Source: a virus (Duplodnaviria; Caudoviricetes). From it: DNA of 64,000 nt. How positions within the stretch are numbered: position 1 is the first letter of the stretch; each line of letters starts with the position of its first letter. The notes beneath the pieces are model-generated. The model saw only the letters and a program-made list of their open reading frames with translations, searched no databases and was not told the DNA's origin. Positions 18,871 to 59,923 of this stretch are shown piece by piece. Both the position numbers and the translations under genes were made by a program. Where the stretch lies: the IMG/VR virus record IMGVR_UViG_3300023119_000004. One strand, given 5' to 3'.

Positions 18871-20238
18871 TTAATAGAAAGCGTTCCAAGCATTACCATC
18901 GTAGTACACTGGATAACTTACTGCACCTGCTTTTGATGCAGGATCCCAACTAGTACCGTCTGCGATTGCAATAATACCTTCACTTGCTGTTGGCTCTGCT
19001 GTTTGTGGAGTTAGTTTAGCAAAACCGTTAACATCTAATGTAGCACTTGCAACATAACCAACTGTTCTGTTAACTGCTAGATAGCCACGTGAGTCATATG
19101 ACATAACATTAAGTGACGGAGCAGAACCTGAACCTGCGTTGTTAATGAATAAGATTTTACCATTAGCAATATCTTGTGCTGGAGTTGTATTTTCGTCAAC
19201 GGTCCAACCAATAATACTTGATGGAACATAGTCACCTACATCTGGATCCCATGCTCGTGAACTTAATGCACCAATGAAGTCACCTGCTGTTGCTCTAACA
19301 GGGTTTTGAATATCACCGTGCTTACTTGAAAAGTTTACTTTAGAAATATTACCAATGTTAGTACCTGCAAGTGTAACTAAGTCTAACGGTGGTGAAGCGT
19401 CAACGTTTGTAATTCTAAATGTAGGTCCAGCAACGTCTGTTTCTTTACCAAGTGCCATATAGTCAACACCGCTAAGTTCAATTTGATTACCATCAAATCT
19501 AACAACACCGTTGTTTAAGGTTACTGTATTTCTTACAGCATCTACTAGTGCAGTAGAGTCATCACCGAAAATAGAACCGTTAACATCACCTGTTAAAGAA
19601 CCTGTAAAACTTGGAGCACTAACAGCACCTGTAAATACACCTGCGCCTGCTGTTACTGCTTTTGATGTAGCATTAAAGAACAATGAATTATCTGTTGCAA
19701 GAACATCACCAGTTAGTTGTCCTGTTGCTGTAATAGCACCTGTTGCTACGTTAACAATTACTGTACTGTCATTGCCAACAACATTGGCATTAATATAACC
19801 TGCTTCAATGCTGTCTGTAACACTAATAAAGTTAGAATAAACACTACCAAATCTGTTAGTTGTAGAACCAACATTTCTTGCACCATCAACATCTGGAATT
19901 AGGCTTGATTCGATTTTAGCCGCAAAGTTAACTGTATCTGTATTTGAATCACCAACTGTGATGTTACCGCCAAGAGTGAAGTTACCGTCAACAGTCATAT
20001 TTCCTGTTGCAGTAATATTACCGTCGATATTGATGTTACCTTGTCCGTCAATATCGTAACCTGATAAGTCTAAGTTTGAGCCTAAAAACTGTCCTGCTGT
20101 ATCTACAGCAATACCACCAGCAGTTGTACCATCACCGATATATAGTCGTTTGGTATCTGTAGTGTATATCAGTTCACCTTCTAAAGGTGTTATTAACTGA
20201 CGTTGTTGATCAGTTCCTCTGCGTAATCTTAAAGCCAT
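18871..20238 (-). CDS. Tail fibre/receptor-binding protein with Mtd-N-like N-terminus
   Basis: MALRLRRGT...LEGELIYTTDTKRLYIGDGTTAGG N-terminus; G/N/D/T-rich beta repeats. Confidence 0.7.
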   Translation of the reverse strand: MALRLRRGTDQQRQLITPLEGELIYTTDTKRLYIGDGTTAGGIAVDTAGQFLGSNLDLSGYDIDGQGNINIDGNITATGNMTVDGNFTLGGNITVGDSNTDTVNFAAKIESSLIPDVDGARNVGSTTNRFGSVYSNFISVTDSIEAGYINANVVGNDSTVIVNVATGAITATGQLTGDVLATDNSLFFNATSKAVTAGAGVFTGAVSAPSFTGSLTGDVNGSIFGDDSTALVDAVRNTVTLNNGVVRFDGNQIELSGVDYMALGKETDVAGPTFRITNVDASPPLDLVTLAGTNIGNISKVNFSSKHGDIQNPVRATAGDFIGALSSRAWDPDVGDYVPSSIIGWTVDENTTPAQDIANGKILFINNAGSGSAPSLNVMSYDSRGYLAVNRTVGYVASATLDVNGFAKLTPQTAEPTASEGIIAIADGTSWDPASKAGAVSYPVYYDGNAWNAFY

Positions 20239-47973: not shown

Positions 47974-47991
47974 GCAAATATTTATGATATG

Positions 47992-48671: not shown

Positions 48672-48980
48672 TTAGTTATTTTTGCTTTGAACTTTTGCTA
48701 GATAGTCACGAAACAGTGAGCCATGTTCACCGCGAATATCTTCTGGTTCTTTTGGAGAGTGCATACCGCCACCAGCGTCAGTAGTAACTGCTTCAATGTC
48801 AGCATACTGTTCTTTTGGTGCATTTGCAACAGATCCACATCCGCAATCATCGTCGGGAATTAAATCCTTTACTTGATCAAAACGTCGGTCATCATCTGTT
48901 TTGTTAATAGTAATATCTATTTTAGGTTGTTCAGCATCGATAATATCTAAAAAGCCTCTAATAAGATCTGCTATTCTCAT
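48672..48980 (-). CDS. Hypothetical protein, possible virion-internal
   Basis: MRIADLIR N-terminus like its neighbours. Confidence 0.5.
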   Translation of the reverse strand: MRIADLIRGFLDIIDAEQPKIDITINKTDDDRRFDQVKDLIPDDDCGCGSVANAPKEQYADIEAVTTDAGGGMHSPKEPEDIRGEHGSLFRDYLAKVQSKNN

Positions 48981-49927
48981 TGTTGCCCACCCTTATTTGC
49001 TTGTTTCATTAATTGTTTAAACTTGCCCATAAGTTGTGGATCTTGCATTATAGTCATAATGCTTTGAGCATACGGTGAAATTGCTTTAAGCACATTTGGT
49101 GGAACAGTTTGGCCTTGTGCAACTTTATCTAGTCCTTTAGCAACTTGAGCACCACTTGCTGTTGATCCTGTAACACCTTTAAGTGCTGTTGCTTTTTGTG
49201 CAACCTTTTGCGTATCTGCACCACCGGCCATTCCAGCAACTTTACCTGCAAGTCCGCCTTGTTGTTGTGCCGCCGCTTTAACTTCATCAGGTGTCGCACC
49301 AGCCGCTTTTGCTACTGCACCTACAGCCATATTAGCACCTTTTTGTGCTACTTTACCAGCCGCTTTTTTTAACATTCCTACACCCGGAGGTGCTTCGCTA
49401 ATAGAAGGATTAAAGTAAGGATTAGTTTCCTTTTCTTTAACCATTGCTTGACCTTTTGCCAGTGCTTTATTAAATTGTTTTAAACCTGTTTGTGGATCTT
49501 GTGTATTCTTACCGTCACTCCATTGTGTTCCGTCCCATTGCCAAGTAGTATTGCCATCGTTAAATGCACTACCGGGTTTTAGTTTACCGACATCTTTAAT
49601 TGGTTGTGGTTTTGTTGGAGCAGGAGCAGGAGCAGGTTCTGCTTTTGGTGCAGGTTTCTCTTTAGCAGGTTTGTCAAAGTCTTTGCCTTTAACATAAGCA
49701 TCTATATCTTTACCGTGATCAATACCACCATCTGGAACATTAGGATCGATTTGATAATTTGATGCGTATTTCTTATTAACTGCTTTATTTAATTTACTAA
49801 GCCAGTTACCTACTGCACCTGTACGTAGTTTGTTATCTGCTCTGTCTAATGATGCTTTAGGATTGAATCCGCCTGGAGGTGCTTCATTTAAGCCTTCGAA
49901 CTCTTCTGTGATGTCCGAAAGTTTCAT
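48977..49927 (-). CDS. Low-complexity A/G/K/Q-rich protein, candidate internal head protein
   Basis: MKLSDITEE leader; LNE-APPG and ISE-APPG; PA linker. Confidence 0.55.
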   Translation of the reverse strand: MKLSDITEEFEGLNEAPPGGFNPKASLDRADNKLRTGAVGNWLSKLNKAVNKKYASNYQIDPNVPDGGIDHGKDIDAYVKGKDFDKPAKEKPAPKAEPAPAPAPTKPQPIKDVGKLKPGSAFNDGNTTWQWDGTQWSDGKNTQDPQTGLKQFNKALAKGQAMVKEKETNPYFNPSISEAPPGVGMLKKAAGKVAQKGANMAVGAVAKAAGATPDEVKAAAQQQGGLAGKVAGMAGGADTQKVAQKATALKGVTGSTASGAQVAKGLDKVAQGQTVPPNVLKAISPYAQSIMTIMQDPQLMGKFKQLMKQANKGGQQ

Positions 49928-49928
49928 A

Positions 49929-50336
49929 TTACTCTCCTAGTGATTCTGATAGTCTTTGTTCTAGTTTTGAAATGTAAGAATCTTTGTTTTCGTTCTTTTC
50001 TGCTTTAGCGGCGTGTACTGCTTTGCGTTGTGCATCGTTTTTGTACTTGCCTTCAGTAGCAACTTCGTCGAATTTTGTTTGATAATCCATATGATGATAA
50101 ACAGAACCTAAATAGTCAGCGGCTTTGGTAATCTTAGCCTGTACCCACCCTTCTAAGCCTTCTTGCTCAGATACGCTTTTAAGCATTTCGTGTAACTTGA
50201 TTGAATACTTTGCTAACTTGTATAAATCTGCACGTGCCATTTGTACTTCATGATCACGTTCGGCCATATCAGCCATGTCGGCTAAGCCTTCGTTAAGTAA
50301 TTTTTCTGCTTCAATCATTAGTTTGTCCTGTTTCAT
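49929..50336 (-). CDS. Candidate internal head protein
   Basis: Late motif 5 nt before ATG; LLNE and ATE sites. Confidence 0.55.
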   Translation of the reverse strand: MKQDKLMIEAEKLLNEGLADMADMAERDHEVQMARADLYKLAKYSIKLHEMLKSVSEQEGLEGWVQAKITKAADYLGSVYHHMDYQTKFDEVATEGKYKNDAQRKAVHAAKAEKNENKDSYISKLEQRLSESLGE

Positions 50337-50341
50337 ACTAG

Positions 50342-50349
50342 TATTTATC
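50342..50349 (-). promoter_or_regulatory. Late promoter motif, apparently leaderless
   Basis: GATAAATA-N5-ATG, no SD. Confidence 0.6.
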
Positions 50350-50575
50350 TTTTAACTGTTTTGCCACCCATCAAATTGTTATCAATGTCGAGGGCGTTTT
50401 TAGCAGTTCCATCTGGATTTTTCTTTTGCGGAGCCTTAGGCAGTCCTTTTGAATCCTTAGGACGCTGTCCATATGCTTGTGCTGGATTAACTACTGTAGC
50501 AATAGCACCGGCACTTGTAGCACCCGCTGTTGCTGTTTCGTCTACTTTTCTATTAAATATTTCTCTTATTAGCAT
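50345..50575 (-). CDS. Small candidate internal head protein
   Basis: MLIREIF...VDE leader. Confidence 0.55.
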   Translation of the reverse strand: MLIREIFNRKVDETATAGATSAGAIATVVNPAQAYGQRPKDSKGLPKAPQKKNPDGTAKNALDIDNNLMGGKTVKR

Positions 50576-50579
50576 AGTA

Positions 50580-52718
50580 TTATTTATCTTGCATTAAACT
50601 AATTATTTCACGCAATGACCCTTTCATTATTCTAACTTTAGCGTCTGTTTCGCCCATAAATCTAAGTGCATCATATCTGTGATGACCATTAACAATATAT
50701 CCTGTATTATCAATTACTATAGGAGCATAGTTGCCTTCTTTTACACGAGTCATTTGCTTGTGTAGTTTATCCCAGGATCTATTACGTTGTACAGGTTTTA
50801 TTAATGAAATATCCATATATACTTCTTCATTAGTAAACTCTTGTAAATCTTCTTCACGTACTTGCGGTGGAGCCATGCCGTTTGTTATATAAAAGTATGA
50901 AGGATCTTCATATCCAGTTTCAGTTAGATCATAACCTTCTTTAGCCAACTTAGTTGCAGTTGCATACATAACTGCTTTCCAGTTATCTCCATAACGCTTT
51001 TTAAAGTCTGCTGAACCTTTTTTCATTCCTTTAACAATACGCTCTTTGTCTTTTTCTTCGCCTTTAGTAAGTTCACGCTCGTCATACTGTGCATCATCAC
51101 CTGGCTTATCAGCATCTTGTATATCATATCCAAGACGCTTTAATTGTTTCATCATGTATTTCTTTTCTTTTTCGCCACCCCAAAATTGAAGCATAATATC
51201 AGGATCGTTAGGATTTACATCTTCAGGATCAACATCTTTGACATTGGCTATATTAGTACCAAGTTTCATAAAGTCATAGTCTGAATCTGATTTAACTAAA
51301 GAAGTATTTTTAGGATTAGGAATTAATTCACCTTCGTCTTTTTTGTGTGGATCAAAGTCAGGATCTTGTATTACAATACGATCCTTTTTAACATAAACTT
51401 CTTTACCTAGTTTACGTGCAATATCCATTAAGTCTTTTGTTCTATTAGGATCAAGATTTTTAACCATATCTGAAACAAATGATGGTAGTTTAGATGCTGG
51501 AATACTTAACGCACCTTCTTCTATATCTTCAGTTGCAAATTTATCTTCAAGTCCTTGCATTTTATAAACAGCCTTAATACCAAACTGTCTAATTTTTGCA
51601 AACAATTTATCTAGTAATGGTTTCTTACCTTGGTTATGTTTTATCAAAAGCATTAACATACCAAAGTCGTTTGGATCTTTGATTAAATCTCTTAATTCTT
51701 CTGCATATGGTTTCAATATTTTTTCAACTTCAGCCCAAGCCATCTCGTGTGCATTGACTTGTTTGTTCCACCATTTTTCCATTTTGCCTAATATTTTATC
51801 AGCAAATCCAGATAGTTTATCAGTAATACCTTCGTCCATTACTTCTTCTGCAGGTTTTTTAAAGTAGTCTTTCAAATTACCAGCCGTCCTTTCAAACTTA
51901 TGATCTTTGTGTTTAAATCCAACACCACCTTTTGATTCCCAATTTCTAATGTTACTACCAAAGTCATCAATTAATATGTTTGGTGTTCCATCTGCTTGTT
52001 TAGCAAACTTCCATTTGTCTGCTGTAATAATAACTTCTTTAGGCGGAAAGAAACTTAAATTATCTTTAACCCATTCTCTTTTGTGTGGCTCTGCTTTAGG
52101 ATCATTTGCTAGAGGAGCACTTAGTATTTTATATTCGCCTTTAAGATCCTTAATAATATTTAGTAATCCTTTGGCGTTAGGTGTTAAAGGCAAAGACAAC
52201 CAAAAGTCTTCTTTGTCTCTAATTTTTTGTAGTGCATCTTCAATATCTTTAATTTCTCTCCAATCAGCACCAACAAGTTTTTTCCAAGCAGGAAAGAAAT
52301 CTGCAAGGACACCGTCCATGTCTACAAAAATTTCTGTAGCACTAGACAGTTCTTTACCCATACGTTCGTCTACGTTTTTATACTTTTGTTTGCGGGGAAT
52401 AATTTTTGACTTGTCTTTATGCGATCCAGCGGCACCACTTTTGCGTAATGCTTCCATATCTTTCCAATTTGGATCTCTTGCTTTAATTGGTTTCTTTATA
52501 TCTTTTTTACTCTCTGCCATTCCTAAATTAAACAATGTGTTTGGATCGCTATTCTTATGTGCTTTCTTGTGCATAGTATATAACGGTTTGCCTTGTTTGT
52601 CAACCGAATTTCCAAATTTCTTTGCTTGTTTAGGGATTTCATTAGGGCCTACATCAACAGTAGTATTAACTCCTGGTACAATTAATCCGCCGTTTTCTTT
52701 TAATTCTCTAAATCTCAT
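50580..52718 (-). CDS. Mosaic protein: HAD 5'(3')-nucleotidase domain, several small modules and a C-terminal ParB/Srx-like domain
   Basis: IFVDMDGVLADF and ILIDD (HAD); PIVIDNTGYIVNGHHRY (ParB-like); MRFRELKE leader. Confidence 0.75.
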   Translation of the reverse strand: MRFRELKENGGLIVPGVNTTVDVGPNEIPKQAKKFGNSVDKQGKPLYTMHKKAHKNSDPNTLFNLGMAESKKDIKKPIKARDPNWKDMEALRKSGAAGSHKDKSKIIPRKQKYKNVDERMGKELSSATEIFVDMDGVLADFFPAWKKLVGADWREIKDIEDALQKIRDKEDFWLSLPLTPNAKGLLNIIKDLKGEYKILSAPLANDPKAEPHKREWVKDNLSFFPPKEVIITADKWKFAKQADGTPNILIDDFGSNIRNWESKGGVGFKHKDHKFERTAGNLKDYFKKPAEEVMDEGITDKLSGFADKILGKMEKWWNKQVNAHEMAWAEVEKILKPYAEELRDLIKDPNDFGMLMLLIKHNQGKKPLLDKLFAKIRQFGIKAVYKMQGLEDKFATEDIEEGALSIPASKLPSFVSDMVKNLDPNRTKDLMDIARKLGKEVYVKKDRIVIQDPDFDPHKKDEGELIPNPKNTSLVKSDSDYDFMKLGTNIANVKDVDPEDVNPNDPDIMLQFWGGEKEKKYMMKQLKRLGYDIQDADKPGDDAQYDERELTKGEEKDKERIVKGMKKGSADFKKRYGDNWKAVMYATATKLAKEGYDLTETGYEDPSYFYITNGMAPPQVREEDLQEFTNEEVYMDISLIKPVQRNRSWDKLHKQMTRVKEGNYAPIVIDNTGYIVNGHHRYDALRFMGETDAKVRIMKGSLREIISLMQDK
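50581..50588 (-). promoter_or_regulatory. Late promoter motif, apparently leaderless
   Basis: GATAAATA-N5-ATG. Confidence 0.6.
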
Positions 52719-52933
52719 TTCTTACGGCCTCTGAATTGTGGCATACCTGTCATAAATGGTTTTGAAAACCAAAGTTTAAACCATTCTGGATCACCAGGCT
52801 TAACACCCATGTCACGTTCTTTTTGTTTAATAGCAGTAGCAGTTAAACTAGGATTCTCATCTATTTTGTATTCTGTGTATCCTTTAAATTCACCAATACC
52901 TGCTAGTTTTTGTAATTGCTTTATATCGTCCAT
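52715..52933 (-). CDS. Small hypothetical protein
   Basis: Packed ORF; ATGA overlap with the downstream gene. Confidence 0.6.
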   Translation of the reverse strand: MDDIKQLQKLAGIGEFKGYTEYKIDENPSLTATAIKQKERDMGVKPGDPEWFKLWFSKPFMTGMPQFRGRKK

Positions 52934-53136
52934 TACTTCTTACCGCCCTTCATATTAGCACACCAGTGATACATTTTACCTTTCTCACCACTGTACTTTT
53001 TAGCCTTAGCACGTAATGAACTAACACTTCCTTTACAACTTGCGCCAGCCTTCTTTACACGACCAGGACGACTTTTGCCTTTCTTTTTACCATCAGCAAA
53101 GTTTTCGTATACGGATTCTATCTCAGCAAATCTCAT
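52933..53136 (-). CDS. Small basic Cys-containing protein with acidic leader
   Basis: MRFAEIESVYE followed by a K/G-rich body. Confidence 0.6.
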   Translation of the reverse strand: MRFAEIESVYENFADGKKKGKSRPGRVKKAGASCKGSVSSLRAKAKKYSGEKGKMYHWCANMKGGKK

Positions 53137-53906
53137 TTGCCACTCCGTGCCATACTAATAAACCATTCTGCTAGGTCTTCGTCTTTTTTATTAAACTTGT
53201 GTGTGAATGCGTCTTTGTCGCCTTTAGCCGCCGCGGCTCTTCTTGCTTTTAATTTATCCTGTACACTTGGCTCTTCCGGAGCACGTTTCTTTTTAATAGT
53301 TGTACGCGGAACATTGCGAGTAGTAAACCCTAGTATTTCGTTTTTAATGCCCATGCCTTGTTTAACTGCATCAAACATTTCTTTTGCTAGATTTTCGTCT
53401 CCAGCAACACCTTGTTTAAATGTATCAAAGTCATCTTGTGCGGCCGCCGCCTTTAATTTACTAGCACTCATTCCTTCTGCACCTTCTGCATCAGGATCAC
53501 GTTCACCAGCATTCACAACTTCGATTACATCAAATGTATAATCATCACCGCCATTATATTTTTTAAGTAATTGATCAAAACTATCAACTCTGTCACTACC
53601 AGCAACATAAATTACTTTTGTATAACCTAGTGTGTATAGTTTTTTCATAGCATCGATAATAGTTCTAACATCGGGCGAACCAATAGTTATATCTGTACCG
53701 AAACTTTTTTGTGCAAAGTAAACTTTTTCTTTGTGTGATAAAGGATCTGTTTTAGGTTTTACAGTATGTGATAAAAAAAGAAAGTGGTCACCTGGAATAG
53801 AAGTTATTTTATCAACTAATTTCTTATGCCCAATGGTAGGCGGATTCATTCTGCCAAAAGCAAAAACAGCAATCTTTTGGTTTTCCGTAAGGTGACGAAG
53901 TAACAT
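53133..53906 (-). CDS. HIGH-superfamily (cytidylyltransferase-like) nucleotidyltransferase
   Basis: FGRMNPPTIGH, YVAGSDR, MSASK. Confidence 0.85.
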   Translation of the reverse strand: MLLRHLTENQKIAVFAFGRMNPPTIGHKKLVDKITSIPGDHFLFLSHTVKPKTDPLSHKEKVYFAQKSFGTDITIGSPDVRTIIDAMKKLYTLGYTKVIYVAGSDRVDSFDQLLKKYNGGDDYTFDVIEVVNAGERDPDAEGAEGMSASKLKAAAAQDDFDTFKQGVAGDENLAKEMFDAVKQGMGIKNEILGFTTRNVPRTTIKKKRAPEEPSVQDKLKARRAAAAKGDKDAFTHKFNKKDEDLAEWFISMARSGK

Positions 53907-54241
53907 TAATACTCCCCGTTTCTCAATAACTCCTCTTCTTCTCCGAAGATTAATTCTGCAAGAGACATTTTTTCTTCTTTGGATAAAAGTTCTTCAGGAC
54001 GTTTAGGAATATCATATTTTGAACAGTAATGTTTTACACCTGTTTCGATCATTTTTTCTAAATCAATTGGACCAATTGAATTACCATTCTTAATTTTATT
54101 TTGACAATCACACATTGTTGGATAGTAAGACTTCCTATAAAAGATAGGATCGTTCTTCATATGTGTTTGAAGGTCTTGAACTACACTATAAGGTAATTCT
54201 GTTTTTTCAGGTTTGCTATCAAAATCTACTGCTTTTACCAT
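53906..54241 (-). CDS. Hypothetical protein
   Basis: Packed ORF. Confidence 0.55.
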   Translation of the reverse strand: MVKAVDFDSKPEKTELPYSVVQDLQTHMKNDPIFYRKSYYPTMCDCQNKIKNGNSIGPIDLEKMIETGVKHYCSKYDIPKRPEELLSKEEKMSLAELIFGEEEELLRNGEY

Positions 54242-54996
54242 TTTCTACAACTCCAGTATCTTGCTTTTGTTCTTGGCCCTGGATTATCACAATTATGTCT
54301 AGCACGGAATGAACGTCTACGTGCTGGATTAGATTTTTTAATCTTCATATTAGGATCGCCAAAGTTAACTTTCTTTACGTTACCTGTTTTAGGATCCTTT
54401 ACGTATACTTTAAACTTTTTAACATCGCCACGCATAGGCTTGCCTAGTTTAACTTTACGTCCTTGGTATTCTGCTTCGTCAACAATGTCATCTTCGTTAA
54501 ACCACAAATCACCGTATGCTTCATAGAAGTCATCACCATCATATGTTTCTTCAAAAACGTTAGATAGTGTTTTTAATCTTGCTAATTCGTCTGACTCATT
54601 TTCATCTTCAGGTACAGCCTCTGCCATTTCTTGACAATCAGTACATCTTCCTACACCGTCATAAACATCTGCAATAGCCGCTCCGCAACAGTTGCTTACC
54701 ATGTCTGGTTCGTTCTCATCGCCTGGAGAATAAGATTCTTTTTTAGCCCAGTCGCCTGAAGAAAATGCAAGTCCTAAATCGGCTATAAACTTATCAATAG
54801 CGTCTTTATCAAGTGGGTTACTATCTGGAAGGATTGTTGTAAATTCTTGTCCAAAAGCACTAGGTTCTGTTTTCCAACCTAGTTGTTGAGCCGCTGTTGG
54901 TATTTTAGTATTATTGCCTTTAACAACTACCTTGGAATAGTTTCCTTCGCCTAAGGCTACTTCAGCAAGATAATCTTTAAATGTTTTATTAGTCAT
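54235..54996 (-). CDS. Candidate internal head protein with T4-like capsid-targeting leader and basic C-terminal domain
   Basis: MTNKTFKDYLAE resembles T4 CTS MKTYQEFIAE; C-terminal FRARHNC...YWSCRKW. Confidence 0.6.
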   Translation of the reverse strand: MTNKTFKDYLAEVALGEGNYSKVVVKGNNTKIPTAAQQLGWKTEPSAFGQEFTTILPDSNPLDKDAIDKFIADLGLAFSSGDWAKKESYSPGDENEPDMVSNCCGAAIADVYDGVGRCTDCQEMAEAVPEDENESDELARLKTLSNVFEETYDGDDFYEAYGDLWFNEDDIVDEAEYQGRKVKLGKPMRGDVKKFKVYVKDPKTGNVKKVNFGDPNMKIKKSNPARRRSFRARHNCDNPGPRTKARYWSCRKW

Positions 54997-55028: not shown

Positions 55029-55036
55029 TATTTATC
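55029..55036 (-). promoter_or_regulatory. Late promoter motif
   Basis: GATAAATA upstream of 54996. Confidence 0.55.
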
Positions 55037-55044
55037 AATAATTG

Positions 55045-55368
55045 TTAGATGCTGATTTCGATATCGAAGTTGCTGTAGCCTAGATCAAACAGTTTGTTTG
55101 CTACTCTTTCTGCTACAACATTAGATTCTGACTCTGATAGTGCTTTATGTAGTCCTACAGTAAGCACAATACCGTCATTTACAGTATTATATGACTCATA
55201 CATAGTTTCGTCTTCTAGTAATCCTTCGTCAGCACATTCAAGAATAGCATCAACGAGATACTCGTCTACTTCTGCTACTTGCTTTTTATTCCATACAATG
55301 CTAATAAAATTTTCCATGTTACTTCCTAATGATTTAGTAAGACGCTGTTTATTGTACCGTCTGTCCAA
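55045..55368 (-). CDS. Acidic hypothetical protein
   Basis: Packed ORF. Confidence 0.55.
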   Translation of the reverse strand: MDRRYNKQRLTKSLGSNMENFISIVWNKKQVAEVDEYLVDAILECADEGLLEDETMYESYNTVNDGIVLTVGLHKALSESESNVVAERVANKLFDLGYSNFDIEISI

Positions 55369-55680: not shown

Positions 55681-56337
55681 TTATTTATCTGTTTTTTCTA
55701 TTGTTAGGACTTTGTCTGTACGTAGCACATTCTTGTTTAAAAATAGGCTAATCATAGTAAATGTTTGCTCATCTTTAACAAAAATATAACGTCCTTTTAG
55801 ATTATATCCCTTTTCAATATCTTCTAATACTGCATGACCAACACGTACTTTATCTGGATTCTTTTTACAATAATTTGCTAGGTTAGGGTCAGCAGTACCG
55901 TTAAGTGTAATCTTTAGTTGGTAAGTATCGTCCTCGCTAATAATAGTGTTAGCATCAAGATCTATACCTTCGGGCGGTTCAAATAGTGTGCTATTTGGAT
56001 TCTTTAATTTGCTATCTAAAAGTAACAACCAATCTTTGTTATTAGAATAAACTCCTAAATACGAACCTTCGCAACGTAATGAGTATTCTTGATCAGCAAA
56101 CGTAAAGTGATTAAGAAGTACTTTTAGATCTTCAACTTGTGAATCAGTTAAAGGCCTTTCGTGCATTCGTGTTTTTAAAAAATACGAGTTACCTTGTTTA
56201 CTATTAATAATATTATCAATAGCAGACCTAGCATATTCTAATTTTTTATTACGAAAGATATGAGCAATAGGACAGATTACACCTAATTTGAACTTATACT
56301 TATCGTAGAATAGTTTATTTGTTGTTTTATACTTCAT
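55681..56337 (-). CDS. Hypothetical protein
   Basis: Packed ORF downstream of clpA. Confidence 0.6.
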   Translation of the reverse strand: MKYKTTNKLFYDKYKFKLGVICPIAHIFRNKKLEYARSAIDNIINSKQGNSYFLKTRMHERPLTDSQVEDLKVLLNHFTFADQEYSLRCEGSYLGVYSNNKDWLLLLDSKLKNPNSTLFEPPEGIDLDANTIISEDDTYQLKITLNGTADPNLANYCKKNPDKVRVGHAVLEDIEKGYNLKGRYIFVKDEQTFTMISLFLNKNVLRTDKVLTIEKTDK

Positions 56338-58573
56338 TGGTTACGACTTCTTTGCTTTTGATATTTAACAAGAATTCTCCATCTTTAATATCAATATTTA
56401 AGTCGCCACCGTTTTTAAGTTCACCAAACAACAATTTTTTAGATAGTGGTGTTTTAATCTGATCGTCAATAACACGTTGTAACGGTCTTGCACCCATCTT
56501 AGCATCGAACCCTTTGTCTACCAATAAGTCTATTGCTTCGTCTGTAATAGTTGTATTAACATTTTTCTCTTTTAACATATTTTTAAGATCAAGCAAGAAC
56601 TTGCCAACAATCTTAAGCATAGTATTTTTATCTAGTTTACCAAACAACATAATTCCGTCAAGTCTGTTACGGAACTCTGGAGGGAAAAACTTCTTAAGTT
56701 CTTTGTCTTCATATTCTTTTTCAAGAGTATCACCAAACCCAATTGAATTTTGTTCTGCTTCTTGTGAACCTAAGTTAGTTGTTAAAATAAGAACAACATT
56801 TCTACAGTCTGCTTGTTTACCATTAGATCCTGTAACAAATCCGTTGTCCATAATTTGTAATAGCAACGAACTTACATCAGGATGTGCCTTTTCAATCTCA
56901 TCTAATAGTAATACAGCATTAGGATTTTCTTGTAACTTAGTAATTAATAGTCCTGCGTTTTCTTCAAATCCCACATAACCTGGAGGTGAACCAATTAGTT
57001 TAGCAACTGAATGCTTTTCTTGATATTCTGACATATCAAAACGTATAAGTTTAACACCCAAGTTGTCTGCTAGTTGTTTTGCAGTTTCTGTTTTACCTAC
57101 ACCAGTTGGTCCCATAAACACAAACGAACCAATAGGTTTATTTTCTGTCTTAAGTCCTGCTTGGGCAACATGAATTTTATCAACAATGCTTTCTAACGAT
57201 GCATCTTGACCAAATACAACTGCTTTGAGGTTCTTTTCTAAGTTTGCAAGATTGCTTGTTTCTGTTTCAGCAATTTGCTCTTTAGGTAGGTCGACTGCTT
57301 TTGCAAGTTCAAATTGAATTTCTGCAACGTCAACAATTTTTTCTTCTGCTTTTTTCAATTTAAATCTTGAACAAGCACAATCAAGTAAGTCAATTGCTTT
57401 ATCTGGAAGTTTCTTATCACTTTGATATTTTACACTTAATTTAATAGCAGAGTCAACTGCTTCTTCTGTAATAACAACACCGTGAAATTCTTCGTAGTAT
57501 TTCTTAATACCTAGCAAAATACTCTTAGCAATTTCTTTACTTGGTTCGTCTACGGTTACTCTTGCAAATCTACGCATTAATGCACGATCTTTTTCAAAGT
57601 ACTTGCGATATTCTTCCCAAGTAGTTGATGCTACAACTTTAATATTTCCTTTTGTAAGAACAGGCTTTAACATATTAGCAAGATCGTTTGAACTTTGGCT
57701 TCCGCCAGCACCAGCACCACTAATCATATGTGCTTCATCGATAAACACAATAGTTTTGCCACGCTTCTTTAACCCAGCAATAACTAATTTAAAACGTTCT
57801 TCAAAGTCGCCTCGATATTTACTACCAGCCAACATACTACCAATGTCTAAATTATATACCGAATACTCTTTTAAGAATTCTGGTACAGCACCGTTTACAA
57901 TATTCCATGCAAGTCCTTCTGCAATAGCAGTTTTACCTACACCTGGATCACCTACAAGTAACACATTGTTTTTACTACGGCGACCTAGTGCAAGTGCAAT
58001 ACTTTCTAGTTCTTCGTGTCTGCCAATTACAGGATCAATTTTACCTGTTTCGGCATCTTTGTTTAAGTTAGTTGTGTATGAACGCAATGCTCTTGCCGCC
58101 ATACCTGCCATTTCCTCATCTTCAAATGACTGTTCAATTTCGTTATTCAAGTAATCTGCAAACTTCTCTTTTTCAATATCTGATTGTGCAATATAATAAT
58201 GTGCCCAAGATTTCTTTTCACTAAACATACTTAAAAATACATCTTGTATTTCAATAGTACTTCTTCCGCTAAACAATACTTGTGTAAATGCTCTGTTAAG
58301 AACACGCTCTACTGCTTGTGTCTTTTTAGGCTTGTATTTTTTATCAGCGGCTTCTCTAATAATATCTTCACATTTAGTTTTTAAATGATGTTCAACATTC
58401 TTTTTGAGATACTCAGGATCTGTTCCAAACCCGTTTACAATATTAACAAAACCGTCATCGCATAACATAGCAAACAACAAGTGCTCCAATGTTACATAGT
58501 CATGATTAAGTTTCTTAGCATCGTTAACTGCTTTGTCAAAAACTCCTTGTAAACTTTCGCTAGGTTCTACCAC
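56327..58573 (-). CDS. clpA: ATP-dependent Clp protease ATPase subunit ClpA
   Basis: Clp N-domain, GDPGVGKT and GPTGVGKT Walker A motifs, IDEAH/LDEIEK, IGF loop, MGARPL. Confidence 0.95.
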   Translation of the reverse strand: MVEPSESLQGVFDKAVNDAKKLNHDYVTLEHLLFAMLCDDGFVNIVNGFGTDPEYLKKNVEHHLKTKCEDIIREAADKKYKPKKTQAVERVLNRAFTQVLFSGRSTIEIQDVFLSMFSEKKSWAHYYIAQSDIEKEKFADYLNNEIEQSFEDEEMAGMAARALRSYTTNLNKDAETGKIDPVIGRHEELESIALALGRRSKNNVLLVGDPGVGKTAIAEGLAWNIVNGAVPEFLKEYSVYNLDIGSMLAGSKYRGDFEERFKLVIAGLKKRGKTIVFIDEAHMISGAGAGGSQSSNDLANMLKPVLTKGNIKVVASTTWEEYRKYFEKDRALMRRFARVTVDEPSKEIAKSILLGIKKYYEEFHGVVITEEAVDSAIKLSVKYQSDKKLPDKAIDLLDCACSRFKLKKAEEKIVDVAEIQFELAKAVDLPKEQIAETETSNLANLEKNLKAVVFGQDASLESIVDKIHVAQAGLKTENKPIGSFVFMGPTGVGKTETAKQLADNLGVKLIRFDMSEYQEKHSVAKLIGSPPGYVGFEENAGLLITKLQENPNAVLLLDEIEKAHPDVSSLLLQIMDNGFVTGSNGKQADCRNVVLILTTNLGSQEAEQNSIGFGDTLEKEYEDKELKKFFPPEFRNRLDGIMLFGKLDKNTMLKIVGKFLLDLKNMLKEKNVNTTITDEAIDLLVDKGFDAKMGARPLQRVIDDQIKTPLSKKLLFGELKNGGDLNIDIKDGEFLLNIKSKEVVTNEV

Positions 58574-59094
58574 TATACATTACTCCTACTAAATTTCTTT
58601 ATTAATTTTTGTTGTTTCTTCTTAGCCAAATCAAGTTTTAGTTTGCTTACTCTGTCAATATAATTAATTCCATATAGATGATCATATTCATGACCAAAGA
58701 TTCTTGCATTCCAACCTGTTAATTCTATTGTACACTCTTTTCCGCTAGAGTCAAGACACTCTGTTACCAAACCAAATGGTCGTTTTACTTTTAGATATAG
58801 TAAAGGAAAACTTAAACAGCCTTCTTCACCTTCAATCATCTCTTCGGACACGGCTGTAATTTTAGGATTAATAATTGCAAAAGGTTTTTCATCTTCGTAA
58901 CCTTTTAATCCTGTTGGTTTAATAATAAAGATTTGTCCGTTAAACTCGACCTGATTAGCCGCCAAACCTACACCCTGATGCTTTTCCATAATTTCAATCA
59001 TATCTTTTTCAATTTGTTTAGCATCTTGTGTTTCGAAGTCAAAAGGATCAACCCTTTTCTCTAAGAAATCATTAGGATAAGTTATCAGTTTCAT
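58573..59094 (-). CDS. def: Peptide deformylase
   Basis: GVGLAANQ, EGCLS, HEYDHL. Confidence 0.95.
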   Translation of the reverse strand: MKLITYPNDFLEKRVDPFDFETQDAKQIEKDMIEIMEKHQGVGLAANQVEFNGQIFIIKPTGLKGYEDEKPFAIINPKITAVSEEMIEGEEGCLSFPLLYLKVKRPFGLVTECLDSSGKECTIELTGWNARIFGHEYDHLYGINYIDRVSKLKLDLAKKKQQKLIKKFSRSNV

Positions 59095-59923
59095 TCTTAA
59101 TCTTTCTCAATTGTTCAATAATGTCAGTATCTTGTATCTTAGGAGTATCACCATAAATCTTAACAAATAGGTTACCAGTTTGCCCAGTACGTCTATCCGG
59201 AAGACCCTGTCCGTGCATACTAAAAGTTGTTCCACTATTAGTTCCAGGAGGTATTTTTAAACTTACTTCTTTGCCTTGGATAGTACGTATGTGTATACTA
59301 GAACCAATCATAAGATCAAAAACATTTACTCTCTCGTCTACATATAAATTTATGCCATCTACGGTATAACGTGGGTGCCTTCTGACTCTTACAATTACAA
59401 ATAAATCACCTCTAGGAGCATTAGGAATTTGGTCGCCGCCCATTCCGGAATATCGTATTTTATCTCCTGGTCTTACGCCTGACGGTAATGTAACATTTAC
59501 ACTTTGTTCTTTACCACTAGGTAGTCTATACGTAATTAAAAAGTCTTTACCAAACACAATATCTTCAATATCAATATCTGCGGCCAATGTAATATCTTGG
59601 TTACGCATTTGTCTTTGTCCAAATGGTGAACGATGTCCAAAAAATGAACCAAAAATATCTTCCATATCACTAGCATTGAAATGAAAACTCGAACCACCAT
59701 GCCCTCTTGCGTGTGCCTGTTGAGGATCAGCAGTTCCGTATTGATCATACATACGTTTCTTTTCAGGATTACTTAGTGTTTGGTATGCTTCGTTTAACTG
59801 TGTAAACAATTTATGATCACCACCCTTATCGGGGTGCTGAGTCGCCGCCTTTTTTCTAAAGGCAGTTTTAATTTCTTTTTCGGATGCGTTTCGTGAGACG
59901 CCTAATAATTCATAATAATCCAT
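59072..59923 (-). CDS. dnaJ: DnaJ/CbpA-type J-domain chaperone (no zinc finger)
   Basis: DYYELLGV, HPD, G/F-rich linker, GDLFV C-terminal domains. Confidence 0.92.
   Translation of the reverse strand: MDYYELLGVSRNASEKEIKTAFRKKAATQHPDKGGDHKLFTQLNEAYQTLSNPEKKRMYDQYGTADPQQAHARGHGGSSFHFNASDMEDIFGSFFGHRSPFGQRQMRNQDITLAADIDIEDIVFGKDFLITYRLPSGKEQSVNVTLPSGVRPGDKIRYSGMGGDQIPNAPRGDLFVIVRVRRHPRYTVDGINLYVDERVNVFDLMIGSSIHIRTIQGKEVSLKIPPGTNSGTTFSMHGQGLPDRRTGQTGNLFVKIYGDTPKIQDTDIIEQLRKIKNETDNLS

What the first reader, a model, noticed from the sequence alone, without database searches (positions are those of the whole stretch)
48672..54996. Cluster of late genes with T4-like capsid-targeting leaders and Glu cleavage sites: protease-processed injected cargo
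N-termini MKLSDITEE, MLIREIF..VDE, MRFRELKE, MRFAEIE..YE, MLLRHLTE and MTNKTFKDYLAE resemble the T4 internal-protein CTS (MKTYQEFIAE), which gp21 cuts after (I/L)-x-E. Internal hydrophobic-x-E sites fall at module boundaries, and LNE-APPG / ISE-APPG recur within one protein. Inference: this is an arsenal of proteins packaged in the head, matured by the prohead protease and ejected with the DNA.
Basis: partly seen in the sequence, partly recalled or inferred. Interest (0 to 1): 0.75.

Follow-up and report, generated by a model that had tools for sequence, protein, structure and literature searches.

The report
Capsid-targeting leaders on phage cargo genes
Ten neighbouring genes of an uncultured giant marine T4-related phage carry short N-terminal tags like those phage T4 uses to load proteins into its head and then cut off, so these enzymes and small basic proteins are probably carried inside the virus particle, though no experiment on this phage shows it.

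Summary
A scoring matrix built only from the leaders of outside homologues of the cytidylyltransferase ranks that enzyme, the 712-aa protein and the 76-aa protein as the top three of 634 ATG starts in the window. A T4 internal-protein-type pattern hits only the 253-aa protein. The leaders are conserved across hundreds of metagenomic homologues and in three syntenic giant-phage relatives.

Run on T4, the same two models pick out IPII and IPIII (plus the hypothetical gp61.1) and rank Alt second to fourth. In cyanophage S-CREM2 the internal-protein-type pattern hits four ORFs, and all four are in its published virion proteome. One is the cytidylyltransferase homologue.

Conserved modules sit directly after Glu, either behind a leader or fused inside larger proteins. 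The basic module follows Glu in 38 of 38 contexts, and LAG(I/V)xE and (L/I)xE-APPG junctions recur. This fits gp21-type cutting.

Not shown for this phage:
- presence of the proteins in virions
- cleavage after Glu
- ejection into the host
- its own prohead protease gene, which I could not reach

I class it as a new variant of the T4 CTS and internal-protein system. I found no open paper describing such leaders in marine phages. This scan has already noted similar leader clusters on other phage DNA.

The parts
55029..55036 (-). GATAAATA, a T4-type late-promoter-like motif 33 nt upstream of the first gene (p253). A sigma70-like match overlaps it at 55048-55020.
   Evidence: ATAAATA occurs 12 times in the window against 34 expected, so it is avoided elsewhere. 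Its position is shown. The same motif stands before the p253 homologue in relative L013.
55045..55317 (-). 90-aa ORF starting MENFISIV, just upstream of the flagged range. It is probably part of the same module set.
   Evidence: In many metagenomic proteins this N-terminal module is fused to the same C-terminal basic domain that ends p253. L011 and L012 have it as 183-198-aa proteins in the same position.
54235..54996 (-). p253. It has an internal-protein-type leader MTNKTFKDYLAE (residues 1-12), a variable acidic middle, VFE149, and then a conserved, very basic C-terminal domain (150-253; phrog_7595, weakly DUF5754-like).
   Evidence: It is the only hit of the internal-protein-type pattern in the window. 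Homologues start MKTFKDYLAE, MKTFQEYLKE or MAKTFKDYLQE. The C-domain is found in 3,985 representative clusters, at the C-terminus in all but one of the 150 listed, with the match starting at query residue 146-149 in most. PHROG hit.
53906..54241 (-). p111, function unknown, with no clear leader here (MVKAVDFD).
   Evidence: Homologues in relatives do carry leader-like starts: MLLNEIFNN in L013 and MRIDELG in L012. No family hit.
53133..53906 (-). p257, an HxGH-type nucleotidyltransferase ('cytidylyltransferase', NMNAT/PPAT-like fold). It has the leader MLLRHLTE ahead of strand beta-1 and a disordered basic tail.
   Evidence: phrog_3041, E 1.2e-52. Among the 120 nearest homologues, 116 have a 15-20-residue N-terminal extension, with only 24 distinct 8-residue leaders, consensus MxLRELFEA. 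In the AlphaFold model residues 1-10 have pLDDT 55 against 95 for the next block. The nearest solved folds are PPAT and archaeal NMNAT at about 14% identity.
52933..53136 (-). p67: an 11-residue leader MRFAEIESVYE followed by a very basic 56-aa module starting NFADGKKKG and ending HWCANMKGGKK.
   Evidence: In relatives the same module is the C-terminal end of the CT (L011), of a 340-aa protein (L012) and of the p712 homologue (L013). It follows Glu in 38 of 38 distinct contexts. The leader itself scores poorly on the CT-derived matrix (-4.5).
52715..52933 (-). p72, which starts MDDIKQLQKLAGIGE and then FKGYTEY. It carries the LAG(I/V)xE junction motif at residues 10-15.
   Evidence: The motif is conserved in the L011-L013 homologues. 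LAG(I/V)xE occurs 17 times against 2.2 expected in the collected homologues, directly before four other conserved modules.
50580..52718 (-). p712, a multi-module protein. Order: leader MRFRELKE; N-module with GVNTTVDVG ending LGMAE69; 5'(3')-deoxyribonucleotidase domain (about 125-278); an unassigned middle; ParB/Srx-like domain (about 620-707).
   Evidence: Pfam NT5C. PHROG 2643 and ParB-like 620. Matrix score 12.4. Nearly all of about 120 homologues start M[RK]-hydrophobic-x-x-hydrophobic-x-[ED]. The N-module stands alone in L011 (101 aa) and in Phosso (64 aa). Break-point analysis.
50345..50575 (-). p76: leader MLIREIFNRKVDE followed by a Gly/Ala/Thr/Ser-rich module (TATAGATSAG) and a basic tail. 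GATAAATA lies 5 nt before its ATG (50581-50588).
   Evidence: Matrix score 8.6. The module forms the C-terminal end of a 248-aa protein in L012, and a related Gly/Ala-rich segment lies near the end of a 190-aa protein in L011. It follows LAGIxE in other homologues. phrog_17311. Promoter motif.
49929..50336 (-). p135, a helical protein with conserved core RDHEVQMARADL after DMAE. GATAAATA lies 5 nt before its ATG (50342-50349).
   Evidence: Homologues are HTVC008M gp132 and Melnitz gene 20, both starting MTRYxKTM(A/S)EA. In one homologue the core follows LAGVAE. The public assemblies' own gene calls start this gene at the second Met.
48977..49927 (-). p316: leader MKLSDITEEFEGLNE, then APPGG, an N-domain, a second ISE-APPG site at 179-185, a low-complexity linker and a conserved C-domain.
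   Evidence: Alignment A1 of 16 homologues shows E-A-P-P-G-G nearly invariant, a 7-residue indel in the leader, and the second site as NPS(I/L)xE-APPG or (F/K)VKE-APG. Matrix score 3.0.
48672..48980 (-). p102, an acidic protein starting MRIADLIRG. It is a weak leader candidate and the last gene of the run.
   Evidence: It fits the loose pattern only, with matrix score -1.6. No family hit.

Best explanation
The cluster encodes cargo for the phage head. Each separate polypeptide starts with a short propeptide of one of two kinds.
- One kind is like the T4 internal-protein CTS: MKTYQEFIAE in T4, MTNKTFKDYLAE on p253 here.
- The other is like the N-terminus of T4 Alt and of marine T4-type prohead proteases: MELITELFDE and MKLITEELTD, against MxLRELFEA, MRFRELKE and MLIREIF here.

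I infer the following mechanism. The tag docks the protein onto the scaffolding core while the prohead assembles. A gp21-type (Peptidase S77) prohead protease then cuts after Glu in hydrophobic-x-Glu sites. This removes the tag and, in multi-module proteins such as p712, p316 and p253, releases enzymes and small, very basic modules that stay in the head with the DNA.

Shown here:
- The leaders are real, portable and conserved.
- They match T4's experimentally defined signals.
- Homologues are found in purified virions of related phages.
- Modules are bounded by conserved Glu junctions.

Inferred:
- docking
- cleavage
- ejection into the host, and any early role of the nucleotidyltransferase, nucleotidase and ParB-like domains
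For: 1. Independent models single out the cluster.

2. Leaders are conserved family-wide. The CT has only 24 distinct 8-residue leaders among 116 of its nearest homologues, consensus MxLRELFEA. The p712 family, the p316 family and p253 relatives show the same.

3. Three syntenic relatives repeat the pattern on partly different proteins.

4. T4 control over 161 kb and 1,505 ATG starts. The internal-protein-type pattern hits only ipII, ipIII and gp61.1. The marine CT-leader matrix ranks Alt.-1 and Alt second to fourth (Alt sequence).

5. T4 cleavage contexts FLTE-A (gp23), LIE-A (gp67) and IAE-A (gp22) resemble LFE-A, LTE-N and LNE-APPG here. I read the T4 contexts from the sequences and placed the cuts from my own knowledge plus the review's statements.

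6. In S-CREM2 the pattern hits only ORF6, 13, 14 and 154 in the whole genome, and all four are in the 52-protein virion proteome (P = 0.003). Late-promoter-type ATAAATA motifs precede ORF6, ORF13 and ORF154.

7. NMNAT-like homologues are reported in other cyanophage virions.

8. The CT leader lies outside the confident fold, with pLDDT 55, yet M1, R4, L6 and E8 are 90% or more conserved.

9. Fission and fusion: modules that stand alone behind a leader here are C-terminal parts of larger proteins elsewhere, always directly after Glu.

10. Leader codons differ between genes, for example Leu as TTA, CTT or CTA and Arg as AGA or CGT, so selection acts on the protein.

11. S77 proteases are encoded by HTVC008M and Phosso, and their N-termini look like the leaders.
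Against: - There are no virion, cleavage or ejection data for this phage or its giant-phage relatives.
- Its own S77 protease, scaffold and capsid genes were not reached. They are known to me only from unchecked first-stage notes.
- The cluster lies between clpA and polB, not in the head module.
- A sigma70-like promoter match overlaps the late motif.
- The S-CREM2 authors themselves warn that abundant late proteins may co-purify with virions. My strict pattern was written after I had seen those N-termini.
- Hydrophobic-x-Glu is a common tripeptide. In p712 its match to module borders is only suggestive.
- The Glu before a module could simply be the module's first residue.
- The p67, p102, p111 and p135 leaders are weak or absent.
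Confidence: 0.62

Rival explanations
1. The tags do load the proteins into the head, but the cargo works inside the particle. It would act as scaffold-core accessories or as basic DNA-condensing internal proteins, and would not be injected as effectors acting on the host.
For: Several released modules would be small and extremely basic: the p67 module, the p253 C-domain and the p76 tail. In S-CREM2 and Syn9 the p76-like proteins copy the N-arm of their own major capsid protein. ORF160 matches the MCP at 17 of 24 residues with 0 of 500 shuffles as good, which points to contacts within the shell. T4 IPIII mutants disturb head assembly (PMC9026906).
Against: Enzyme domains such as the nucleotidyltransferase, the 5'-nucleotidase and the ParB-like domain have no obvious job inside a capsid. 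T4 Alt and the IPs are ejected. The match of p76 itself to a capsid N-arm is not significant with foreign capsid proteins.
Confidence: 0.15
2. The leader is a handle for the phage's own proteostasis genes next door (DnaJ, deformylase, ClpA). It would act as a chaperone-binding or degradation signal that times the life of late cytoplasmic enzymes, and would have nothing to do with packaging.
For: In this phage and three relatives the cluster always lies directly downstream of dnaJ-def-clpA. N-terminal linear motifs are typical Clp recognition signals (my own knowledge).
Against: T4-like cyanophages, the pelagiphage and the Methylophilales phage have the same cluster and leaders without a neighbouring clpA. 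The leaders match T4 signals with a proven packaging role. Leader-bearing proteins are in purified virions.
Confidence: 0.08
3. There is no targeting function. The shared starts reflect common descent or recombination cassettes at gene starts, or selection for efficient translation initiation. The proteins are ordinary late cytoplasmic nucleotide-metabolism enzymes, and their detection in virion preparations is carry-over.
For: T4-type phages shuffle genes through conserved cassettes at gene borders (titles found: PMC2839356, PMC4122927). The starts are AT-rich, as in highly expressed genes. The authors caution about carry-over.
Against: Conservation is at the amino-acid level with different codons. 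It holds across homologues only 46-72% identical. The same motif marks the T4 proteins whose packaging depends on it. The conserved Glu junctions inside proteins are not explained by this reading.
Confidence: 0.1

Closest known systems
[quoted passage not shown]
   Same: A 10-12-residue N-terminal leader with aromatic residues at the positions equivalent to 4 and 7, Leu/Ile at 8 and Glu at 10. It sits on otherwise unrelated, often basic proteins whose genes have late-type promoters. The pattern derived here finds ipII and ipIII in T4.
   Different: The cargo is a conserved, syntenic cluster shared from pelagiphages and cyanophages to giant marine phages, not a hypervariable locus. It includes enzymes and a 712-aa multi-module protein. 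p253 has two extra residues after Met. Nothing has been tested experimentally.
Phage T4 Alt, the packaged, gp21-processed, injected ADP-ribosyltransferase (NC_000866; PMC5512222, PMC9026906)
   Same: A large enzyme (682 aa) with the N-terminus MELITELFDE. The matrix built from marine cytidylyltransferase leaders ranks it second to fourth of 1,505 T4 ATG starts. The core (E/D)-L-F-(E/D) is shared with MxLRELFEA.
   Different: The catalytic domains differ: nucleotidyltransferase, 5'-nucleotidase and ParB-like here, with no ADP-ribosyltransferase. The register differs by one residue.
Virion-associated NMNAT-like or cytidylyltransferase proteins of T4-like cyanophages: S-CREM2 ORF154, S-SCSM1 ORF91, S-CBWM1 (PMC10665884, PMC9602691)
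   Same: These are homologues of p257 (about 40% identity to cyanophage members) detected by mass spectrometry in CsCl-purified virions. S-CREM2 ORF154 starts MKNFSSFLTEA behind a TATAAATA motif.
   Different: As far as I read them, those papers give no loading mechanism and mention no leader. Here the enzyme carries the Alt-type leader rather than the internal-protein type.
Polyvalent proteins of phages and conjugative elements (Iyer et al. 2017, PMC5512222)
   Same: Several unrelated enzymatic domains, including a ParB-like domain, lie in one phage polypeptide predicted to travel with the DNA, with proteolytic release of parts.
   Different: p712 has no MuF, metallopeptidase or other signature domain of that class found here. 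Processing would be by the head protease at Glu sites, not by a built-in peptidase. The gene is not next to packaging genes.
Ejection and inner-body proteins of phiKZ-like giant phages such as SPN3US (PMC5694885, PMC7411985)
   Same: Many head-internal proteins are cut by a prohead protease after Glu and delivered into the cell.
   Different: That is a different phage lineage, and from my own knowledge a different site rule (small residue-x-Glu). No CTS-type N-terminal decapeptide is known there. I did not compare sequences.

Membership tests
T4-type CTS-bearing head cargo (IP/Alt class) | An N-terminal leader of about 8-19 residues, with hydrophobic or aromatic residues at the targeting positions (4 and 7 in IPIII) and a (L/I)-x-E processing site (8 and 10). 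| tested here: met
   p253 fits with a two-residue offset and is the only such start in the window. CT, p712 and p76 match the Alt-like matrix at 8.6-12.7. The same models recover ipII, ipIII and Alt in T4. p316 matches weakly, and p67 and p102 fail the strict matrix.
T4-type CTS-bearing head cargo (IP/Alt class) | The same leader sits on otherwise unrelated proteins, that is, it is portable. | tested here: met
   The leaders precede a nucleotidyltransferase, the GVNTT N-module, the TATAGATS module, the APPG protein and the basic-domain protein. In relatives they sit on further proteins.
T4-type CTS-bearing head cargo (IP/Alt class) | Late transcription. | tested here: inconclusive
   GATAAATA lies 33 nt before p253 and directly before p76 and p135. 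The heptamer is three-fold depleted overall and recurs in relatives. There are no expression data, and a sigma70-like site overlaps.
T4-type CTS-bearing head cargo (IP/Alt class) | The phage encodes a gp21-type (Peptidase S77) prohead protease and a scaffolding core. | not testable with these tools
   No whole genome is held. Walking along the contig stopped at a 4,928-aa gene. S77 is present in HTVC008M and Phosso and is annotated in S-CREM2. For this genome there are only unchecked first-stage notes.
T4-type CTS-bearing head cargo (IP/Alt class) | The protein is physically present in purified virions. | not testable with these tools
   Only homologues are documented: S-CREM2 ORF154, 155, 156 and 160, and S-SCSM1 ORF91.
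T4-type CTS-bearing head cargo (IP/Alt class) | The leader is removed by cleavage after Glu, and the protein is ejected with the DNA. | not testable with these tools
   The evidence is indirect only: conserved Glu junctions.
Polyvalent proteins (Iyer et al. 2017) | Two to fifteen effector-type domains in one polypeptide, typically with MuF, a metallopeptidase, ParB or similar, encoded beside packaging or transfer genes. | tested here: inconclusive
   p712 combines NT5C and a ParB-like domain with unassigned parts. No MuF or peptidase hit was seen. Its neighbours are clpA and polB, not packaging genes.
HxGH nucleotidyltransferase superfamily (PPAT, NMNAT, cytidylyltransferase) | A Rossmann-like fold with the (H/T)xGH motif after strand beta-1. 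| tested here: met
   The motif GRMNPPTIGH is at residues 18-27 and is invariant in the alignment. phrog_3041, E 1e-52. Foldseek matches PPAT and NMNAT at E about 1e-6 and 14% identity. The substrate is not determined.

The most novel reading that the evidence does not exclude
Marine T4-superfamily phages, from pelagiphages and cyanophages to giant phages of about 300 kb or more, may share a sequence-readable loading code. It would consist of two leader classes plus Glu cut sites such as LAG(I/V)xE and (L/I)xE-APPG. Polyprotein cargo would be docked on the prohead core and diced into enzymes and small basic modules. The conserved set of nucleotidyltransferase, 5'-nucleotidase and ParB-like domains would be injected with the DNA as a first-minute kit. 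That kit would act on host nucleotide or NAD pools or on nucleotide-based defence signals before any phage gene is expressed.
Probability: 0.3. Interest if true: 0.75.

Novelty: new variant of a known kind. Interest (0 to 1): 0.6.

Why it matters
If the leaders work as in T4, the packaged and possibly injected protein set of abundant ocean phages could be read from sequence alone. That includes uncultured phages.

It would explain a repeated, unexplained result: NMNAT-like enzymes, kinases and a SAM hydrolase turn up in cyanophage virion proteomes.

It would assign a role to a widely conserved cluster of hypothetical genes in T4-like marine phages.

It would extend T4's CTS and gp21 system from small internal proteins to modular polyproteins.

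It also gives direct tests: neo-N-termini after Glu in existing MS data, and leader-reporter fusions.

Tried and rejected
- **Whole genome.** None is held, and the public contig behind the window cannot be searched.
- **Exact-match scans.** Scans of viral and metagenome contigs found nothing.
- **Walking to the head genes.** Walking from the window start by exact-protein look-ups reached about 28 kb upstream. It stopped at a 4,928-aa fibre gene whose full product I do not hold. The phage's own protease, scaffold and capsid cut sites remain unseen.
- **S77 in an IMG/VR relative.** The search of G001 was negative, but that record is a 44%-complete fragment.
- **Pfam.** It gave almost nothing beyond NT5C.
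- **tblastn of the p712 N-terminus.** Against isolated phages it found only Phosso.
- **p76 as a copy of a capsid N-arm.** This is not significant against S-CREM2 MCP or T4 gp23 (328 and 185 of 500 shuffles as good). It holds only for S-CREM2 ORF160 and Syn9 gp190.
- **p712 break-points against hydrophobic-x-Glu sites.** Suggestive only.
- **Class II matrix in S-CREM2.** Its best hit at an annotated start is the prohead protease. Otherwise it hits non-start positions, so that phage mainly uses the internal-protein-type leader.
- **No complex prediction.** The partner proteins of this phage are unknown.

Full report
**What the window is.** The window is AT-rich (33-38% GC). Its family-B DNA polymerase is closest to those of jumbo phages: Sinorhizobium phage Phosso at 51%, Atu_ph07 at 47% and the 121Q group at 43%. 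The same sequence lies on a 272,735-bp JGI metagenome contig and in dozens of other assemblies. No whole genome is held for the window. This is an uncultured giant marine phage of the T4 superfamily.

**Anatomy of the cluster.** On the minus strand, ten ORFs run from 54996 to 48672 with overlapping or nearly touching stop and start codons. No terminator-like site lies on that strand.

| Protein | Content |
|---|---|
| p253 | basic C-terminal domain, phrog_7595 |
| p111 | no family hit |
| p257 | HxGH nucleotidyltransferase ('cytidyltransferase', phrog_3041, E 1e-52); nearest solved folds PPAT and archaeal NMNAT |
| p67 | no family hit |
| p72 | no family hit |
| p712 | NT5C deoxyribonucleotidase domain about 125-278; ParB-like domain about 620-707 |
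| p76 | phrog_17311 |
| p135 | no family hit |
| p316 | no family hit |
| p102 | no family hit |

Upstream lie dnaJ, a deformylase and clpA. Downstream lies polB.

**Promoters.** The heptamer ATAAATA, the core of the T4 late promoter, occurs 12 times against 34 expected. One copy (GATAAATA) lies 33 nt before p253. Two more lie 5 nt before the ATGs of p76 and p135. Relatives show the same motif before cluster genes. A sigma70-like match overlaps the first site. 'Late genes' is therefore supported by motif only.

**Is the leader more than chance?**
- A loose pattern fits 6 of 10 cluster ORFs and 0 of 83 others (P = 2.8e-7). It was written after seeing the cluster.
- For an independent test I took the nearest homologues of p257 from a 5.8-billion-protein search. 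Of these, 116 carry a 15-20-residue extension before beta-1, with only 24 distinct 8-residue leaders, consensus M-x-L-R-E-L-F-E-A.
- A matrix built from those leaders, excluding the window's protein and its near copies, ranks the window's 634 ATG starts as follows: p257 12.7, p712 12.4, p76 8.6. p316 scores 3.0. Scores of 8 or more occur in 0.027% of internal 8-mers.
- An internal-protein-type pattern, allowing up to two extra residues after Met, hits only p253.
- p67 and p102 fail the strict matrix.
- The codons of the leaders differ from gene to gene, so the constraint is on the peptide.

**Conservation and portability.**
- The p712 family (about 120 proteins) almost always starts M-(R/K)-hydrophobic-x-x-hydrophobic-x-(E/D), followed by the GVNTT module.
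- That module with its leader stands alone in Phosso (64 aa, MRYAEIL...) and in relative L011.
- The p316 family keeps (L/I)-x-E-A-P-P-G-G almost invariant, while the leader before it has a 7-residue indel.
- The C-domain of p253 occurs in 3,985 representative clusters behind very different N-terminal parts. Many of those start MKTFKDYLAE, MKTFQEYLKE or MKINEIITE.
- Three syntenic giant-phage contigs (117-339 kb) have the cluster in the same clpA-to-polB slot. Their leaders sit on partly different proteins: MRYREFKILTEA, MKIDDLFED, MRLRETFKA, MNLRQLFER, MLLNEIFNN, MAKTFKDYLQEA, MRYVEFKQ and MLIRELFRE.
- The cluster is also syntenic with HTVC008M gp126-134, Syn9 gp182-191, Melnitz genes 15-22 and S-CREM2 ORF154-160. 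There the cytidylyltransferases start MKTLKELL, MKKFSAFLSEA, MKKFSEIIEA and MKNFSSFLTEA.

**Comparison with T4, as a control.**
- The T4 CTS is MKTYQEFIAE (PMC8442874). Residues 4 and 7 serve targeting, and residues 8 and 10 serve processing (PMC9026906).
- I read 161 of T4's 169 kb.
- The internal-protein-type pattern hits only ipII, ipIII and the 54-aa gp61.1.
- The matrix from marine CT leaders ranks Alt.-1 and Alt (MELITELFDE) second to fourth of 1,505 ATG starts.
- T4 head proteins show the cut contexts FLTE-A (gp23), LIE-A (gp67) and IAE-A (gp22). I read these and placed the cuts from my own knowledge and the review.
- The prohead proteases of HTVC008M, S-CREM2 and Phosso start MKLITEELTD, MKLIREEIE and MANFLTEA. 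The leaders here therefore look like the N-termini of proteins known to sit in T4-type prohead cores.

**Evidence from published proteomes.**
- S-CREM2 virion mass spectrometry found 52 of 219 ORFs. Among them were the cytidylyltransferase ORF154, its neighbours 155, 156 and 160, and ORFs 6, 12, 13, 14 and 15 (PMC10665884).
- Across the whole S-CREM2 genome, the strict pattern occurs only at the starts of ORF6, 13, 14 and 154. All four are in the proteome (P = 0.003).
- Caveat: I wrote the pattern after seeing these N-termini. The informative part is that no other ORF has it.
- NMNAT-like homologues were also reported in S-SCSM1 and S-CBWM1 virions (PMC9602691).
- The authors note possible carry-over of abundant late proteins.
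- Searches of open literature found no paper linking a CTS to cyanophages or other marine phages.

**Is the leader part of the enzyme fold?** In an AlphaFold model of p257 built on 25 homologues, residues 1-10 have mean pLDDT 55. The next block has 95, and beta-1 starts at residue 12. M1, R4, L6 and E8 are nonetheless 90% or more conserved. That is the signature of a linear signal.

**Module junctions.**
- The basic module of p67 (NFADGKKKG...) forms the C-terminal end of the CT in L011, of a 340-aa protein in L012 and of the p712 homologue in L013.
- In 38 distinct sequence contexts it is always preceded by Glu. A hydrophobic residue is often at -3.
- LAG(I/V)xE occurs 17 times against 2.2 expected in the collected homologues. 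It stands directly before four other conserved modules, including the cores of p76, p135 and the p253 C-domain. It also lies near the start of p72.
- In this phage the matching positions read VDE, DMAE and VFE.
- For p712, alignment break-points coincide with hydrophobic-x-Glu at 69, 401 and 547 and lie near 118 and 296. Two clear borders have none, so this is suggestive only.

**What could not be done.** The phage's own S77 protease was not reached. Virion presence, cleavage and ejection cannot be tested here.

**Verdict.** The best reading is that these are head-cargo proteins with T4-type targeting propeptides and Glu cut sites (0.62). Ejection and any host-directed role are inferred. The system is a new variant of a known kind. 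This scan has recorded similar leader clusters on other phage genomes. Those records agree with this reading but are not independent evidence.

Noticed in passing
window 50581-50588, 50342-50349, 55682-55688, 47979-47985 (minus strand): (G)ATAAATA lies exactly 5 nt before the ATG of four genes, and a TATATAAT box lies 6 nt before dnaJ at 59923, with no room for a Shine-Dalgarno site. This suggests leaderless mRNAs, late ones at the four genes. The heptamer is three-fold depleted in the window overall.
   Followed up: partly
L020 (T4 NC_000866) 18966-19130, gene 61.1: The 54-aa hypothetical T4 protein gp61.1 starts MKTFKEFIKE. Besides ipII and ipIII, it is the only T4 start matching the internal-protein-type pattern. 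It might be an unrecognised packaged protein.
   Followed up: no
L008 6343-7236 (S-CREM2 ORF160); L009 1496-2020 (Syn9 gp190): These p76-like virion proteins carry a close copy of the N-arm of the mature major capsid protein. ORF160 matches its own MCP at 17 of 24 residues with 0 of 500 shuffles as good. This probably explains why RefSeq calls Syn9 gp190 a 'major head protein'. The match for the window's own p76 is not significant.
   Followed up: partly
L013 14038-14359: In this relative the p76 homologue is split into two overlapping ORFs of 70 and 52 aa. The cause could be a frameshift, an assembly error or programmed shifting.
   Followed up: no
L027 1-7320 (about 21-28 kb upstream of the window start on the JGI contig): A 4,928-aa gene with faint carbohydrate-binding and FG-GAP hits is followed by a Collar-domain protein. 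This is a giant fibre gene ahead of the radical-SAM island.
   Followed up: no
window 56327-59923 and L011-L013: The order dnaJ-(def)-clpA, then the cargo cluster, then DsbA-like, then polB is conserved in the window and in three relatives of 117-339 kb. L013 lacks the deformylase.
   Followed up: partly
L024 2073-2588 (Phosso, just after its S77 protease gene): A 171-aa ORF directly downstream of the Phosso prohead protease starts MRASELFEF. This is the same Alt-like leader class, in a soil rhizobiophage.
   Followed up: no
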